Below are positions 39,669 to 43,949 of a stretch of 62,293 bases of DNA, piece after piece. Under the pieces are notes generated by a model, which saw only the letters and a program-made list of their open reading frames with translations, was not told the origin of the DNA and made no database searches. The DNA lies in NCBI GenBank assembly GCA_039630355.1, contig JBCNVF010000014.1:1-62293 (forward strand), given 5' to 3'. Made by a program: the position numbers and the translations under genes. The stretch comes from Brevinematia bacterium. GTDB lineage: Bacteria; Spirochaetota; Brevinematia; DTOW01. Numbering within the stretch: position 1 is the stretch's first letter; each line of letters starts with the position of its first letter.

Positions 39669-39888
39669 CTATGAAGTCTAAGATTTACAGTTGGGTGCAG
39701 TTTCTTCTCCTTATTTTCCTCGCAGTCCCTGGCGGGACTGATGAACTTCTCTTTTGGCAAGCACCTAGCCTAGTATGAAATGAGGTTTTGTTACCGAAGA
39801 ACACTGCCTAGAACCAAAGGGGATAAATAGAAGTGAGCAAAAATTTTAGAATCTTGTTTACTCTCCTAATGAAAATTGGAATTTATTG
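39669..39888 (-). mobile_element. MITE-like element copy D (220 bp, inverted), overlapping the murD 3' end
   Basis: AAAATTGGAATTTATTG end at 39888; interior collinear with A-C; perfect hairpin CAGTCCC-TGGC-GGGACTG at 39723-39740. Confidence 0.85.
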
Positions 39889-41245
39889 CTAACTTTCTGA
39901 CTATGCTTTTAAAACATTCACCTCTGTGTTCATAGTTTTTGAACATGTCAAAGCTTGCATAAGCTGGTGAGAATAGGACGATATCTCCTTTATCAGCAAT
40001 TTCTCTTGCTTTTGTTACTGCGTCTTCTAGATTTTCTGCTTTGTAGAATTTGTTGTATCCTTGGGTTTTGAGTTTTTCAACTATAAGTTCTCTAGTGCTT
40101 CCGATTGCGATAACATACTTAACTTTTTTCTTTATTATGGGAACAGCTTCGTCAAAGTCCATTCCCTTGTCAAGTCCTCCTACGATCAGGACTATTGGGT
40201 TATCTAGACTTCTTATTGCACTAACCATTGCGTTTATAGTTGTGGACTTAGAGTCGTTTATGTATTTTGCTCCATCTATTTCTGTAACAAATTCCATCCT
40301 GTGTGGTAATGGTTCAAAAGAGTAAATGCTTTCCTCAATTATCTCTTTGGGTAGTTCCATTTCCATTCCTATTGCAACTGCTATCATGATATTCTCAATA
40401 TTGTGTTTGCCTATCAGTTTAACTCTAGTTGTATTGATAACTTTTTCTTCTTCAAACCATATATAGCCGTCTCTGAGGTATACCTCTTTGCTACTTAGTT
40501 TTCCGTTTCTACCTTCATAGGCCGAGAAAAAGATTTTTCTGCACCTTAGGTTATTTACTTGCGGTAAGTTCAGAAGGGATTTGTTTAGAACGCTTATTTC
40601 TTTCTCCTCAGAGTTCTTGAACAAGGAAAACTTTGACGCAATGTAATCTTCAAACGAGGGGTATCTATCAAGGTGATCTTTTGCAATGTTAGTTATAGCT
40701 CCTATTTTTGGGGTGAACTCTCTTGTGGTATCTATTTGAAAACTACTTATCTCTAGAACGAGAGTTTCAATATCCTCTTCAAAGAGTGAGAATATTGGTA
40801 TGCCTACATTACCGCCAATGAATGTTTTAGGGAGGTAGGAACTTAGGACTTTGTGTGTTATATTGGTTGTTGTTGTTTTACCGTCCGTTCCTGTTATAGC
40901 GATGTATCTGATATTGGGTTTTAGCCTGTAAAAAAGTTCAATATCTCCTATGACTTCAATGTCTTTTTCCAAAGCTTTAGCTATAATTGGATTAGTCAGA
41001 GGCACACCTGGGCTTGAGATAATCATCTCTACATTATCAAGCTCTGCATCCTCTGTGCCTAGTAGGTCAATGACTTCTCCTTTTGCTTTTTCTTTGACCT
41101 TGGATAGAAGTTCTTCTTTTTCGGGGTCTCTGACTTTGTCGGAGATTAAAACGTTGCAACCCTTTTCGGCTAGGAACTTGGCAGTATGAAAGCCTGTTCT
41201 ATGAGTGAATCCTAATACTAAGAAGTTCTTTTTACCTAGTATCAT
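39866..41245 (-). CDS. murD: UDP-N-acetylmuramoyl-L-alanine--D-glutamate ligase
   Basis: SSPGVP, AITGTDGKTTT, LEISSFQ, DHLDRY, NDSKST, FSPAYASFDMFKNYEHRG. Confidence 0.95.
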   Translation of the reverse strand: MILGKKNFLVLGFTHRTGFHTAKFLAEKGCNVLISDKVRDPEKEELLSKVKEKAKGEVIDLLGTEDAELDNVEMIISSPGVPLTNPIIAKALEKDIEVIGDIELFYRLKPNIRYIAITGTDGKTTTTNITHKVLSSYLPKTFIGGNVGIPIFSLFEEDIETLVLEISSFQIDTTREFTPKIGAITNIAKDHLDRYPSFEDYIASKFSLFKNSEEKEISVLNKSLLNLPQVNNLRCRKIFFSAYEGRNGKLSSKEVYLRDGYIWFEEEKVINTTRVKLIGKHNIENIMIAVAIGMEMELPKEIIEESIYSFEPLPHRMEFVTEIDGAKYINDSKSTTINAMVSAIRSLDNPIVLIVGGLDKGMDFDEAVPIIKKKVKYVIAIGSTRELIVEKLKTQGYNKFYKAENLEDAVTKAREIADKGDIVLFSPAYASFDMFKNYEHRGECFKSIVRKLAINSNFH

Positions 41246-41260
41246 ATTTCTACTCCTTGT

Positions 41261-42223
41261 TTATTCAATATGCACTCTTGGGTCCATAGCATCCCTTAAG
41301 GCTTCTCCTAGTAGGTTTAGTCCAACCACGGTTATGAATATAGCGATACCTGGGAAGACTGCCAGCCACCATGCATAACTTATATATTGGTTTCCGAGGA
41401 GGAGAATATTACCCCAGCTTGGGGTAGGAGGTTGGACTCCGAGTCCTAGGAAGCTTAAGGATGATTCAACAAGAACTGCTCCTGCTATACCAAAGACTAA
41501 GGAGACAATAGCGGGATTTATAGCGTTGGGTAGGAGGTGTCTTGTCAGTATGTATATATTACTTGTTCCTGTTATTTTAGAGATTTTAACAAAGTCCATA
41601 TTTGAGACTCTTAGGGTTTCTCCTCTTACAAGCCTAGCTACTCCTGTCCAGCCAGTGAGTCCTATTACGAACATTATGTTATAGATGTTGGGGGGTAGGA
41701 AGGCTAAGATAGTGAGGATAAGAAAGAGAGTTGGAAAGGTCATGAAAACCTCTATTACCCTCATGATGATAGCGTCAACTATTCCTTTGAAGTATCCTGC
41801 TAGAAGTCCTAGGGTAGTGCCTATGATGAATGCTGTTCCCATTGCTACGATTCCTACGGATATTGAGACTTGAGTCCCGTATATTATTCTTGCGAGAACA
41901 TCTCTTCCTAGGTCATCAGTTCCGAGAAGATGTTCTTTAGAGGGTGGTAGGAGTTTTTTTTCAAGGTTTATTGTGTATGGGTTGTGTGGAATAGGTGGCA
42001 TTATTTTGAAACTACTTTTTGACCAATCTACCTCTTCGGCGTATTTGGAGGGTAGAAGCACTGGAAAGAATACTCTCCCGTCAAGTATGCAGAATATGGG
42101 TTTATTGTTGGCGACAAACGGTGAGAATATGACGGTAAAGAGAAGGAGAAAAACGATAGAAAGCCCAATGATACCTAGCTTATTTGAGAAGAAGCGGTTT
42201 TTGACAAACTCTAGGTAAGTCAT
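41261..42223 (-). CDS. Peptide/nickel ABC transporter permease (OppC/DppC-like)
   Basis: HLLGTDDLGRDVLARIIYG, EAA-like loop, RHLLPN, ESSLSFLGLG. Confidence 0.88.
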   Translation of the reverse strand: MTYLEFVKNRFFSNKLGIIGLSIVFLLLFTVIFSPFVANNKPIFCILDGRVFFPVLLPSKYAEEVDWSKSSFKIMPPIPHNPYTINLEKKLLPPSKEHLLGTDDLGRDVLARIIYGTQVSISVGIVAMGTAFIIGTTLGLLAGYFKGIVDAIIMRVIEVFMTFPTLFLILTILAFLPPNIYNIMFVIGLTGWTGVARLVRGETLRVSNMDFVKISKITGTSNIYILTRHLLPNAINPAIVSLVFGIAGAVLVESSLSFLGLGVQPPTPSWGNILLLGNQYISYAWWLAVFPGIAIFITVVGLNLLGEALRDAMDPRVHIE

Positions 42224-42247
42224 TTTGTGGATAGAACCTTAAGTATT

Positions 42248-42320
42248 TGGGCGGTAGAGGATTTGAACCTCTGACCTCTTGCTTGTAAGGCAAGCGCTCT
42301 AACCACTGAGCTAACCGCCC
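42248..42320 (-). tRNA. tRNA-Val(TAC), CCA not encoded
   Basis: GGGCGGTTAGCTCAGTGGTTAGAGCG-CTTGC-CTTACAA-GCAAG...GGTTCAAATCC..CCGCCC-A; 73 nt; followed by AAT. Confidence 0.97.
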
Positions 42321-42832
42321 GTTGTTTTACTAACTTTTGCTTTTTCTATTCTTGCCTTGGCGTAGTTCATCAAACCGCCGTGTCTAAATATCTCAAAGAG
42401 TATTTTTGGGAAAGGTTTTATCTTGAACTCTTTGTCTTTGGTAATGTTTCTCACAATACCTTTTTCTAGGTCAATTTCAATTATGTCTCCAGTGTCTGTG
42501 TTGTCAACAGCTTCGGGTGCCTCAACAATGGGTAGTGCTCTGTTTATTGAGTTTCTGAAGAATATCCTTGCAAACGATTTAGCGACAACTGCACTTACTC
42601 CAGCGGATTTTATTGATATGACTGCATGCTCTCTTGAGGAACCTGAGCCAAAGTTTTTCCCTGCAACGAGAATGTCTCCTTTTTGGACTTTACTTGCAAA
42701 CGTTGGATCTTCGTCCTCAAGACAGTGTTTTGCTAGTTCTTTTGGATCTGTTGTGTTCAAATACCTTGCAGGGATTATCTTGTCAGTGTCTATATCATCG
42801 CCGTATTTCCAGACCTTGCCCTTTATGATCAT
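42311..42832 (-). CDS. leuD: 3-isopropylmalate dehydratase small subunit
   Basis: GDDIDTDKIIPARYL, GKNFGSGSSREHA, SFARIFFRN; stop codon lies inside tRNA-Val. Confidence 0.92.
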   Translation of the reverse strand: MIIKGKVWKYGDDIDTDKIIPARYLNTTDPKELAKHCLEDEDPTFASKVQKGDILVAGKNFGSGSSREHAVISIKSAGVSAVVAKSFARIFFRNSINRALPIVEAPEAVDNTDTGDIIEIDLEKGIVRNITKDKEFKIKPFPKILFEIFRHGGLMNYAKARIEKAKVSKTTGG

Positions 42833-42912
42833 ATTTATGATTAATTCTGTATGATGCTCTTGAATTTACTCAAGTTTGCTAAATTTTCATTTTAGGTGTT
42901 TGTGTTTTACAA

Positions 42913-42940
42913 TTTAGATGTGAGGGAATTATTCCGAAAA
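42913..42940 (+). promoter_or_regulatory. Candidate sigma28-like promoter TTTAG-N15-TCCGAAAA
   Basis: Ends 22 nt before ATG 42963; identical motif at 4959-4986. Confidence 0.4.
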
Positions 42941-42962
42941 TCTTTAAGGTTGGAGTGGGAAA

Positions 42963-43949
42963 ATGCCAGAGTCTGGTGTTCCTGCGTATGGAGTTATAAA
43001 GGGTAGATTTAAGGCTGTTGGGACAAACACTTTTGGACTGGTGTTTGTTTCCTTTAATCTACTCTCAAAGAGTTTGGAGAAGATACAAGTAGCTTCTTCT
43101 CACTTTAGTTCTATTTATGAAAACAATCCTCAGATGCCTTGGTATGACTTTGAGGAGAGAATTATAAACGTTAAGTGGAGGGGGGAATACTCTATAAGTA
43201 TTACCAACGATATACAAAAGGCGGTGGATTACGAACTCAAGTCCAAGGATAGGATAGAGGAGATAGTATATTTTATTTCTAGAGGTGCTACTCCTAAGGT
43301 AGCAGAGTTTTTGCAAGCTGTATTACAGAGGCCTACAGGTGATAGAAATGTTTCTGTTGATGTGGAACTGGAGACTGTGAGTCAGGATGAAGTTGATGAG
43401 ATAAACTTGAGAAGGATGAGGAAGGAGTCGGAGAAGAAGTCTCAGCAGGCTCAACAGACAGTAAAGCAGGATACTGATGAATTTAGCTTACCTCCAAACT
43501 CGATAGTTCTTGAGTCATCACTAGTTTTATCTCCTATAACAGGAGTTCCGATATATGAGTTAAAACCTGGAGATAAGGTTTTGACTAGGATAACGGAGAA
43601 GACCCAACGGGGACAATATTTTAAGGAGCTACTTGGGGCTATTAACACTCAAACTAATGAAGAAAAACCTATTCCTTCTGTGATTGAACAGATAAAGGTT
43701 GTTGGTAAGAGTTATGTTATATTGACAAGCATAGGGCCTGGAATTTACGGTAAATCCATAGAAGAAGATAACGTGAAAATAAAGAAGTATGAGGGAGAGA
43801 TATTGAAAGGTCCAAGATCAGATCAGGTGTTGAGTGAGGAAAGTTTGCAAAAGGGTGATAGTATTACTAATATTCTGATTTTCGTTGGCATAGCAGCTGG
43901 GGGCCTGATCCTTGTTGCCCTTATTCTGATGATGTTAGGGTTTTTCTAA
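42963..43949 (+). CDS. Hypothetical protein with C-terminal membrane anchor
   Basis: 328-aa ORF with native-like composition; C-terminal hydrophobic helix; coupled to hisB (TAATG). Confidence 0.75.
   Translation: MPESGVPAYGVIKGRFKAVGTNTFGLVFVSFNLLSKSLEKIQVASSHFSSIYENNPQMPWYDFEERIINVKWRGEYSISITNDIQKAVDYELKSKDRIEEIVYFISRGATPKVAEFLQAVLQRPTGDRNVSVDVELETVSQDEVDEINLRRMRKESEKKSQQAQQTVKQDTDEFSLPPNSIVLESSLVLSPITGVPIYELKPGDKVLTRITEKTQRGQYFKELLGAINTQTNEEKPIPSVIEQIKVVGKSYVILTSIGPGIYGKSIEEDNVKIKKYEGEILKGPRSDQVLSEESLQKGDSITNILIFVGIAAGGLILVALILMMLGFF

What the first reader, a model, noticed from the sequence alone, without database searches (positions are those of the whole stretch)
42248..42340. The leuD stop codon lies inside tRNA-Val (10-nt same-strand overlap)
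Seen: leuD ends ...ACA ACG GGC GGT TAG and tRNA-Val begins GGGCGGTTAG, so tRNA nucleotides 1-10 encode the last codons and the stop (U8-A9-G10). The permease and murD follow downstream on the same strand. Established: RNase P cleaves at tRNA position 1, and non-stop mRNAs are handled by tmRNA. Inference: maturing the tRNA from a leuD transcript would leave a non-stop leuD mRNA, making LeuD synthesis and tRNA-Val production compete. Leucine synthesis branches from the valine precursor 2-ketoisovalerate, so this could be regulatory. It could also be a neutral loss of an upstream stop.
Basis: partly seen in the sequence, partly recalled or inferred. Interest (0 to 1): 0.7.

Follow-up and report, generated by a model that had tools for sequence, protein, structure and literature searches.

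The report
leuD stop codon inside tRNA-Val
In this hot-spring spirochete relative the leucine-pathway gene leuD really does end on a stop codon formed by bases 8-10 of a valine tRNA gene, but relatives show this is one drifting state of a conserved leuD-tRNA transcription unit, so it is a tidy curiosity and not a new kind of control.

Summary
On the minus strand, leuD (42832..42311, 173 aa) ends ACG GGC GGT TAG. A canonical tRNA-Val(UAC) (42320..42248; Rfam 80.3 bits) begins GGGCGGTTAG, so the two overlap by 10 nt and the stop codon is U8-A9-G10.

The organism is a Brevinematia (Spirochaetota) genome assembled from a hot-spring metagenome. In about 16 diverged relatives, tRNA-Val always sits within 6 nt of the leuD stop:
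- 10-nt overlap in 5 lineages
- 1-nt overlap in 1 lineage
- gaps of 0, +1, +2, +4, +5 and +6 nt in the others

The 10-nt overlap occurs only where the tRNA has A9, which is what makes UAG. It differs between sister lineages (L005 against L002, 95% bootstrap) and needs about 4 switches on the tree.

A sigma-70-like promoter upstream of leuD is conserved in all relatives. No promoter inside leuD is conserved. In a relative with a +6 gap, contigs from five hot-spring metatranscriptomes run from the leuD 5' end across the junction into the tRNA.

Best reading: leuD and the tRNA are co-transcribed and the tRNA is cut out, as in E. coli secG-leuU. The stop position drifts neutrally, with the tRNA's built-in UAG acting as a backup stop that adds X-Gly-Gly. 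A regulatory competition is neither needed nor supported. The selB-selC overlaps are a published analogue.

The parts
42868..42873 (-). -35 hexamer (TTGAGT) of the conserved leuD promoter
   Evidence: In alignment A1 of 14 relatives, TTG is invariant in otherwise unalignable intergenic DNA. The homologous site in L042 scores 10/12, and RNA contigs start just downstream of it.
42844..42849 (-). -10 hexamer (CAGAAT; TAAAAT in most relatives), 18-nt spacer; only 11 nt separate it from the leuD ATG and there is no Shine-Dalgarno sequence
   Evidence: The columns T..A.AATT are invariant in A1. Sequence read.
42311..42832 (-). leuD, small subunit of 3-isopropylmalate/citramalate isomerase, 173 aa including a variable Lys-rich tail and the tRNA-encoded ...T-G-G end
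   Evidence: TIGR02084 253.6 bits. Matches PDB 3VBA, 2PKP and 1V7L. Mean codon-position identity among relatives is 0.90/0.94/0.52.
42311..42320 (-). 10-nt overlap of leuD and the tRNA; the stop TAG (42313..42311) is tRNA U8-A9-G10
42248..42320 (-). tRNA-Val (anticodon UAC), 73 nt, discriminator A73, no encoded CCA
   Evidence: ARAGORN. Rfam 80.3 bits. The cloverleaf is 100% paired in relatives with 2 compensatory pairs. The cloverleaf helices are kept when folded together with leuD flank.
42224..42247 (-). 24-nt spacer between the tRNA 3' end and the permease ATG (5-10 nt in relatives); no terminator
41261..42223 (-). OppC/NikC-type ABC permease gene, probably on the same transcript
   Evidence: NF045476 and related models, E about 1e-87. 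The N-terminus MTY(L/F)(E/Q)F is conserved in relatives.
39866..41245 (-). murD, last gene of the same-strand run
   Evidence: TIGR01087 428 bits.
42480..42507 (-). Promoter-like match inside leuD (TTGACA-16-CATAAT, 11/12), about 160 nt upstream of the tRNA; a possible extra tRNA promoter in this lineage only
   Evidence: Its -10 part is not conserved in relatives.

Best explanation
leuD and tRNA-Val(UAC) form a conserved transcription unit driven by a sigma-70-type promoter just upstream of leuD. In this lineage the unit probably continues into the permease gene and murD. LeuD is translated from the unprocessed transcript. The tRNA is then cut out, by RNase P at its 5' end and by an RNase Z-type cut plus CCA addition at its 3' end, since no CCA is encoded. 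The leuD part then decays, as in E. coli secG-leuU.

The spacer between leuD and the tRNA is only 0-6 nt across the clade, and the stop codon wanders by point mutations and small indels. When the original stop is lost in the reading frame that starts at tRNA nt 2, translation runs three more codons (NNG GGC GGU) and ends on UAG, formed by tRNA U8-A9-G10. The overlap is thus a nearly neutral, recurrent state that adds X-Gly-Gly to a tail that is already unconstrained. It is not a dedicated control device.

Shown: the overlap; conservation of the pairing; variability of the junction; the conserved promoter; transcripts spanning the junction in a relative.
Inferred: co-transcription in the window organism itself; the processing enzymes; the fate of the cleaved leuD RNA.
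For: - The overlap is real and is reproduced in independent contigs.
- Junction states in about 16 lineages are -10 (x5), -1, 0, +1, +2, +4 (x3), +5 and +6 (x3), and never exceed 6 nt. Meanwhile synonymous sites are near saturation (third-position identity 0.52) and flanking genes differ between lineages.
- The 10-nt overlap occurs in 5 of 10 lineages whose tRNA has A9 and in 0 of 6 whose tRNA has G9.
- Only the frame starting at tRNA nt 2 stops early. The other two frames run 99-141 nt.
- L005 (overlap) and L002 (gap 0) are sisters at 95% bootstrap and differ by a 2-nt indel. The Fitch minimum is 4 changes.
- The codon before GGC differs among the overlapping lineages (ACG, AAG, AAG, AGG, GCG), and L035 and L038 have TAG at that same position.
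- The LeuD profile and solved structures end at about residue 160, and tails are variable.
- The promoter upstream of leuD is conserved. No promoter inside leuD is conserved, and there is no terminator.
- In relative L042, RNA contigs run from 7 nt upstream to 19 nt downstream of the leuD start codon (positions 1508-1534), through the tRNA, to about 45 nt beyond it in 4 runs. A fifth run spans the junction. All 8 runs have zero cover over the promoter gaps.
- Precedent: secG-leuU (PMC2241853).
Against: - No RNA data exist for the window lineage or for any overlap-type lineage.
- The RNA evidence consists of assembled contigs, so the ratio of processed to unprocessed RNA and the exact RNA ends are unknown.
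- The window has an 11/12 promoter-like site inside leuD that could supply part of the tRNA.
- Deep nodes of the leuD tree are unsupported, so the number of switches is only robustly at least 2.
- Neutrality is inferred from variability, not measured. The spacer staying at 6 nt or less everywhere could itself reflect selection.
Confidence: 0.7

Rival explanations
1. Regulatory competition. Because the stop lies inside the tRNA, each RNase P cleavage turns a leuD mRNA into a non-stop mRNA. Its product is then tmRNA-tagged and degraded. LeuD output would therefore fall as tRNA-Val maturation rises, coupling the Leu and Val branches.
For: Co-transcription is supported. The leuD-tRNA-Val pairing is kept across a whole clade although both flanks are rearranged. 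The overlap persists in 5 lineages. Trans-translation prefers mRNAs with short 3' extensions (PMC3985003). A similar model was proposed for selB-selC (PMC8124441).
Against: The overlap is not conserved and flips between sister lineages. Relatives with a stop 0-6 nt upstream would experience almost the same post-cleavage fate, so the overlap adds little. No riboswitch, T-box or competing structure was detected. LeuD has no known interaction with tRNA-Val. leuD stands alone without leuC, so it is an odd control point.
Confidence: 0.15
2. The tRNA is made mainly from its own promoter inside leuD (for example TTGACA-16-CATAAT at 42507..42480). leuD read-through into the tRNA would then be a minor by-product, and the overlap would have essentially no consequence for either product.
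For: An 11/12 consensus match lies about 160 nt upstream of the tRNA. Weaker versions (TTGAAA-16-TATTAT or TATACT) occur at the same place in some relatives.
Against: The -10 part is not conserved: many relatives have G at position 2. The -35 part is explained by Val-Glu/Asp codons. Promoter-like matches are common in this AT-rich DNA (14 found against 7.5 expected). RNA contigs in L042 start at the leuD 5' end and continue through the tRNA with no visible step. Even if such a promoter is active, full-length leuD transcripts still have to pass through the tRNA.
Confidence: 0.12
3. Artefact: an assembly or sequencing error removed the true leuD stop, or the tRNA call is false or a pseudogene.
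For: Coverage of this lineage in the source sample is low, about 5x.
Against: Two independent contigs agree with no differences. The identical junction architecture is present in 4 other diverged lineages plus a 69x strain in the same sample. The tRNA scores 80.3 bits, is nearly invariant and shows compensatory changes.
Confidence: 0.02

Closest known systems
E. coli secG-leuU operon (mRNA followed by a tRNA on one transcript; Mohanty and Kushner 2008, PMC2241853)
   Same: A protein gene is followed on the same strand by a tRNA with a very short spacer. There is one upstream promoter. The tRNA must be released by RNase P at its 5' end. In E. coli the upstream mRNA is degraded in under 30 s after that cut. 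In relative L042 a hairpin follows the tRNA, as the terminator does in secG-leuU.
   Different: The spacer is 14 nt in E. coli, so secG keeps its stop codon. Here it is 0-6 nt or a 10-nt overlap, so the cleaved leuD RNA has no stop. In the window lineage further genes (permease, murD) follow the tRNA instead of a terminator. Processing has not been shown here.
selB-selC overlaps in Proteobacteria and Nitrospirae (Mukai 2021, PMC8124441)
   Same: A bacterial ORF runs into a same-strand tRNA gene. In Dyella and Luteibacter the stop lies inside the tRNA at a fixed position, while close relatives have a stop just before the tRNA. The trait is described there as conserved for a period but not essential. 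The same repression-after-processing model was proposed.
   Different: That case involves tRNA-Sec and its own elongation factor, which is a direct functional link. The overlaps are 46-48 nt or the whole tRNA. Here an ordinary elongator tRNA-Val overlaps a biosynthetic enzyme gene by only 10 nt, using the near-universal U8-A9-G10.
Mitochondrial tRNA punctuation with gene overlaps (own knowledge; Ojala et al. 1981. Reference 17 of PMC8124441, on Armadillidium vulgare, was seen only as a citation)
   Same: A tRNA is wedged between ORFs with almost no spacer on either side: 6 nt or less upstream and 5-24 nt downstream. Excision of the tRNA would define both mRNA ends. Cleavage can leave an mRNA without a complete stop.
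   Different: In mitochondria the partial stops are completed by polyadenylation, and this is a genome-wide system. Here it is one locus in a free-living bacterium, the stop is complete only before cleavage, and no completing mechanism is known.

Membership tests
mRNA-tRNA co-transcription unit (secG-leuU type) | Protein gene and tRNA on the same strand with no promoter or terminator between them | tested here: met
   10-nt overlap in the window and 6 nt or less in all relatives. No terminator-like site on the minus strand.
mRNA-tRNA co-transcription unit (secG-leuU type) | A promoter upstream of the protein gene drives both | tested here: inconclusive
   A conserved TTG...TAnAnAATT motif lies upstream of leuD in 14 lineages. 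RNA contigs in L042 begin just after it. This was not measured in the window organism, and an internal promoter-like site exists.
mRNA-tRNA co-transcription unit (secG-leuU type) | RNA molecules that contain both the coding sequence and the tRNA | tested here: met
   Met for relative L042 (gap +6): contigs from 5 metatranscriptomes span the junction, plus one contig in X9. No RNA run holds the window lineage.
mRNA-tRNA co-transcription unit (secG-leuU type) | RNase P separates the two and the upstream mRNA then decays quickly | not testable with these tools
   Needs read-level end mapping or RNase P depletion. Only assembled contigs were available.
Same-strand ORF-tRNA overlap with the stop inside the tRNA (selB-selC type) | A bona fide tRNA and a bona fide conserved protein ORF that ends inside it | tested here: met
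   tRNA 80.3 bits. LeuD equivalog above its cut-off. Stop at tRNA nt 8-10.
Same-strand ORF-tRNA overlap with the stop inside the tRNA (selB-selC type) | The overlap recurs at the same tRNA position in several lineages, while close relatives stop before the tRNA | tested here: met
   Five lineages stop at nt 8-10 and eleven stop from 1 nt inside the tRNA to 6 nt before it.
Same-strand ORF-tRNA overlap with the stop inside the tRNA (selB-selC type) | A direct functional partnership between the protein and the tRNA | tested here: not met
   LeuD is a dehydratase subunit with no known tRNA role. The only link to valine is the shared precursor 2-ketoisovalerate (textbook knowledge).
Mitochondrial-type tRNA punctuation | ORFs abut the tRNA on both sides | tested here: met
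   leuD lies 6 nt or less upstream. The permease ATG lies 5-24 nt downstream in 8 lineages (L034 read).
Mitochondrial-type tRNA punctuation | Truncated stop codons are completed after cleavage (polyadenylation) | tested here: not met
   After a cut at tRNA nt 1 the leuD RNA ends ...ACA AC, with no partial stop (U or UA) to complete.
Amino-acid-responsive leader (T-box or attenuator) | A recognisable leader RNA or an alternative structure | tested here: not met
   Rfam finds only the tRNA, at gathering threshold and at E up to 1. The fold of the junction region is not unusual (z = -1.04). The leuD leader is only about 5 nt long.

The most novel reading that the evidence does not exclude
A free-living bacterium uses an organelle-like 'punctuated' operon. 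One promoter makes leuD-tRNAVal-permease-murD RNA. Excision of the tRNA both ends the leuD message (without a stop, so later translation is tmRNA-tagged) and creates a nearly leaderless permease-murD message. tRNA-Val maturation would then time or limit LeuD synthesis and license expression of the downstream genes.
Probability: 0.15. Interest if true: 0.6.

Novelty: new member of a known kind. Interest (0 to 1): 0.3.

Why it matters
The locus is a clean natural series for asking what happens to an mRNA whose 3' end is made by tRNA processing. The same gene pair occurs with a 10-nt overlap, a 1-nt overlap and gaps of 0 to 6 nt. It also shows that U8-A9-G10 of ordinary tRNAs can serve as a backup stop codon, which makes ORF-tRNA overlaps easy to evolve. 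Annotation pipelines that forbid such overlaps will shorten or miss these ORF ends. It does not reveal a new regulatory principle.

Tried and rejected
- **Sequencing or assembly error.** Rejected: independent contigs and five lineages agree.
- **Conserved tRNA promoter in the leuD tail or 3' coding part.** Alignments anchored on codons and on the tRNA show free third-position variation and no -10 element at a fixed distance. The window's 11/12 site is lineage-specific.
- **T-box, attenuator or alternative structure.** Rfam finds nothing but the tRNA. The junction fold is ordinary and keeps the cloverleaf helices.
- **RNA-seq for the window lineage and for overlap-type L005.** None found.
- **RNAalifold on the tRNAs.** It gave a non-cloverleaf consensus because there is too little variation, so I counted pairs on the cloverleaf instead.
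- **leuC next to leuD.** Absent from the nine 365-476-aa ORFs of the window that I scanned against Pfam, and from the called genes flanking leuD in relatives.
- **Metagenome pattern hit L045.** This was an unrelated tRNA and was discarded.
- **Literature searches.** They found no earlier description of this locus.

Full report
**1. What is in the sequence**

ARAGORN finds a single tRNA in the 62-kb window: tRNA-Val with anticodon UAC at 42320..42248 on the minus strand. Rfam's tRNA model matches the same coordinates end to end at 80.3 bits, against a gathering score of 29.

The ORF at 42832..42311 on the same strand is the small subunit of 3-isopropylmalate/citramalate isomerase. TIGR02084 'leud' scores 253.6 bits against a cut-off of 245.85. 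The closest solved structures are 3VBA, 2PKP and 1V7L. The family profile ends at residue 159 of 173, and the remaining residues (ARIEKAKVSKTTGG) form a tail.

The minus strand reads ...gtt agt aaa aca acG GGC GGT TAG CTCAG.... tRNA nt 1 is therefore the last base of a Thr codon, nt 2-7 encode Gly-Gly, and nt 8-10 (U8-A9-G10) are the stop.

An OppC/NikC-type permease gene starts 24 nt after the tRNA (42223..41261), and murD follows (41245..39866). The gene upstream of leuD is divergent. No leuC turned up among the nine 365-476-aa ORFs of the window that I scanned against Pfam.

**2. Is it an artefact?**

No.
- The source is a hot-spring metagenome. Two independent per-run contigs cover 41929-42304 and 42275-43000 with no differences, although at only 5-7x depth.
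- A second strain, about 15 times more abundant in the same run, carries ...GAGAAGAA|GGGCGGTTAG, which is the same architecture.
- Four other diverged lineages have the identical NNG GGC GGT TAG junction.

**3. Relatives**

LeuD homologues at 81-93% identity come from Brevinematia/Brevinematales (Spirochaetota) genomes assembled from metagenomes. I collected the junction from the genome collection, from contigs encoding individual homologues and from a JGI metagenome pattern scan.

In every one of about 16 distinct lineages, tRNA-Val(UAC) directly follows leuD:

| Distance from leuD stop to tRNA nt 1 | Lineages |
|---|---|
| -10 (overlap) | window, L005, L031, L032, L033 |
| -1 (the G of TAG is tRNA G1) | L035 |
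| 0 | L002 |
| +1 | L044 |
| +2 | L038 |
| +4 | L003, L039, L043 |
| +5 | L037 |
| +6 | L004/L042, L006, L034 |

More distant Brevinematales (68-70% LeuD identity) have no tRNA near leuD.

The pair stays together although both neighbours change. Upstream neighbours include valS, aspS, priA and others. Downstream neighbours are permease-murD, rpmB, NfeD, or a gene on the other strand.

leuD itself is under strong purifying selection. Mean pairwise identity by codon position is 0.90/0.94/0.52, so synonymous sites are close to saturation. The tRNA is almost invariant and keeps its cloverleaf through two compensatory pair changes.

**4. The overlap is a labile state**

- **A9 is required.** All five lineages with the 10-nt overlap have a tRNA with A9, which creates UAG. 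That is 5 of 10 A9 lineages, against 0 of 6 G9 lineages.
- **Only one frame stops early.** Of the three frames entering the tRNA, only the one beginning at nt 2 stops at 8-10. The others run on for 99-141 nt.
- **The preceding codon varies.** It is ACG, AAG, AAG, AGG or GCG in the overlapping lineages. L035 and L038 have TAG at exactly that position. Single substitutions in such a stop therefore give a three-codon read-through to the tRNA's own UAG.
- **Sister lineages differ.** L005 (overlap) and L002 (gap 0) share the unusual tail EKMKK and are sisters at 95% bootstrap. They differ by a 2-nt indel that shifts the frame.
- **Several switches are needed.** On the neighbour-joining tree the state needs at least 4 changes. 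Deep nodes are weak, so at least 2 is the robust bound.
- **The tail is unconstrained.** C-terminal tails vary from 5 to 14 residues, are Lys-rich and do not align.

Together these points indicate a stop codon drifting within a very short spacer, with the tRNA providing a backup stop.

**5. Transcription**

*Promoter upstream of leuD.* The DNA upstream of leuD does not align between lineages apart from the start-codon region and one motif: TTGAGT, 18 nt, then TAAAAT (CAGAAT in the window), with the columns TTG and T..A.AATT invariant. In the window this motif lies at 42873..42844.

*No conserved internal promoter.* Third codon positions vary freely in the last 180 nt of leuD, and no -10-like element sits at a fixed distance from the tRNA. 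The window does have an 11/12 match, TTGACA-16-CATAAT, at 42507..42480. Its -35 part is a by-product of Val-Glu/Asp codons, and its -10 part is missing in most relatives. No terminator-like site lies between leuD and the end of murD.

*RNA evidence.* No RNA run holds the window lineage. For relative L042 (gap +6, LeuD about 88% identical), eight hot-spring mat metatranscriptomes do.
- In four runs a single contig runs from 1508-1534 (leuD is 1515-2012) through the tRNA (2019-2091) to 2134-2142, and to 2274 in one run.
- A fifth run spans the junction into the tRNA.
- The other three runs are fragmentary.
- All eight runs have no cover over the promoter gap (1369-1502) or over 2173-2239. That pattern is transcript-like, not DNA-like.
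- The predicted promoter in L042, TTGAAA-18-TAAAAT at 1465-1494, fits the contig starts.

leuD and the tRNA are therefore on one RNA in a close relative. For the window organism this is an inference.

**6. Mechanism**

Shown: the architecture, its conservation and co-transcription in a relative.

Inferred from established knowledge:
- RNase P cuts at tRNA nt 1.
- Because no CCA is encoded, the 3' end is probably made by an RNase Z-type cut followed by CCA addition.
- LeuD is made from the uncut transcript. A ribosome terminating on UAG(8-10) would have to unfold the acceptor and D arms.
- Once cut, the leuD RNA ends ...ACA AC with no stop. Any ribosome reaching that end would need rescue.

In E. 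coli secG-leuU (14-nt spacer), RNase P cleavage is followed by loss of secG mRNA in under 30 s (PMC2241853). Trans-translation also favours mRNAs with short 3' extensions (PMC3985003). Relatives with gaps of 0-6 nt would therefore meet nearly the same fate. That is why losing the stop should cost little, and why the overlap adds little regulatory power.

**7. Comparison with known systems**

- **secG-leuU type mRNA-tRNA operon.** This is what the locus most resembles in how it works.
- **selB-selC overlaps (PMC8124441).** This is the closest published overlap. It includes lineages whose selB stop lies inside tRNA-Sec while relatives stop just before the tRNA.
- **Mitochondrial tRNA punctuation.** The locus resembles it in layout, with ORFs abutting the tRNA on both sides. 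It lacks stop completion by polyadenylation.

My literature searches found no earlier description of this Brevinematia locus. I class it as a new member of a known kind.

**8. Verdict**

Interest is modest, at 0.3.

The most novel reading still open is an organelle-like punctuated operon in which tRNA excision ends the leuD message and creates a nearly leaderless permease-murD message. I give it a probability of about 0.15.

Noticed in passing
window 42224-42247; L002, L005, L031, L034, L039, L043 downstream of the tRNA: The permease start codon lies only 5-10 nt after the tRNA 3' end in six relatives and 24 nt after it in the window, with no Shine-Dalgarno sequence or promoter. Its conserved N-terminus starts at that ATG. 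Cutting out the tRNA would leave a nearly leaderless permease-murD mRNA.
   Followed up: partly
window 42833-42849: Only 11 nt separate the conserved -10 element from the leuD ATG, and there is no Shine-Dalgarno sequence, so this leuD mRNA should be almost leaderless. L033 is similar. The other relatives have 20-30 nt containing GAGG.
   Followed up: partly
L042 2241-2295: The gene after the leuD-tRNA unit has TTGATT-17-TATAAT ending 6 nt before its ATG (2276). Metatranscriptome contigs start at 2291-2295. This looks like a genuinely leaderless mRNA, so the clade seems to use leaderless translation.
   Followed up: partly
L042 2143-2165: A perfect hairpin, GTTGGGATAC-AAA-GTATCCCAAC, lies 52 nt after the tRNA and has no U-tract. 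RNA contigs from three runs end at 2134-2142, just before it. It may be the 3' end of the leuD-tRNA transcript in this lineage.
   Followed up: partly
L035/L036 3471-3480: A DUF4159 gene on the opposite strand ends inside the 3' part of the same tRNA. Its stop is the complement of tRNA nt 64-66, giving a 10-nt antisense overlap.
   Followed up: no
L034 570-3545: In one relative, valyl-tRNA synthetase (valS) lies divergently upstream of the leuD-tRNA-Val unit.
   Followed up: no
window 42480-42507 (minus strand): A near-consensus sigma-70 promoter-like site, TTGACA-16-CATAAT (11/12), lies inside the leuD coding sequence. It is not conserved in relatives.
   Followed up: partly
run X1, contig ending at window 42320: The same hot-spring sample holds a second strain at about 69x depth whose leuD tail (...RIEQKKQEKKGG, like L032) also runs into the tRNA with the 10-nt overlap.
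   Followed up: partly
window 42311-42832 and the flanks of L031-L036 and L040: leuD stands alone. No leuC was found among the ORFs I scanned in the window or among the called genes flanking leuD in relatives, including more distant Brevinematales.
   Followed up: partly
window 41261-42223: A single OppC-type ABC permease gene sits between the tRNA and murD, with no OppB, ATPase or binding-protein gene beside it. The arrangement is conserved in several relatives.
   Followed up: no
window 42247-42320 (plus strand): A weak sub-threshold Rfam hit to 'Plastid-ycf2 5UTR RNA' (30.5 bits against a gathering score of 65.7) lies on the strand opposite the tRNA. It is almost certainly just the tRNA complement.
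   Followed up: no
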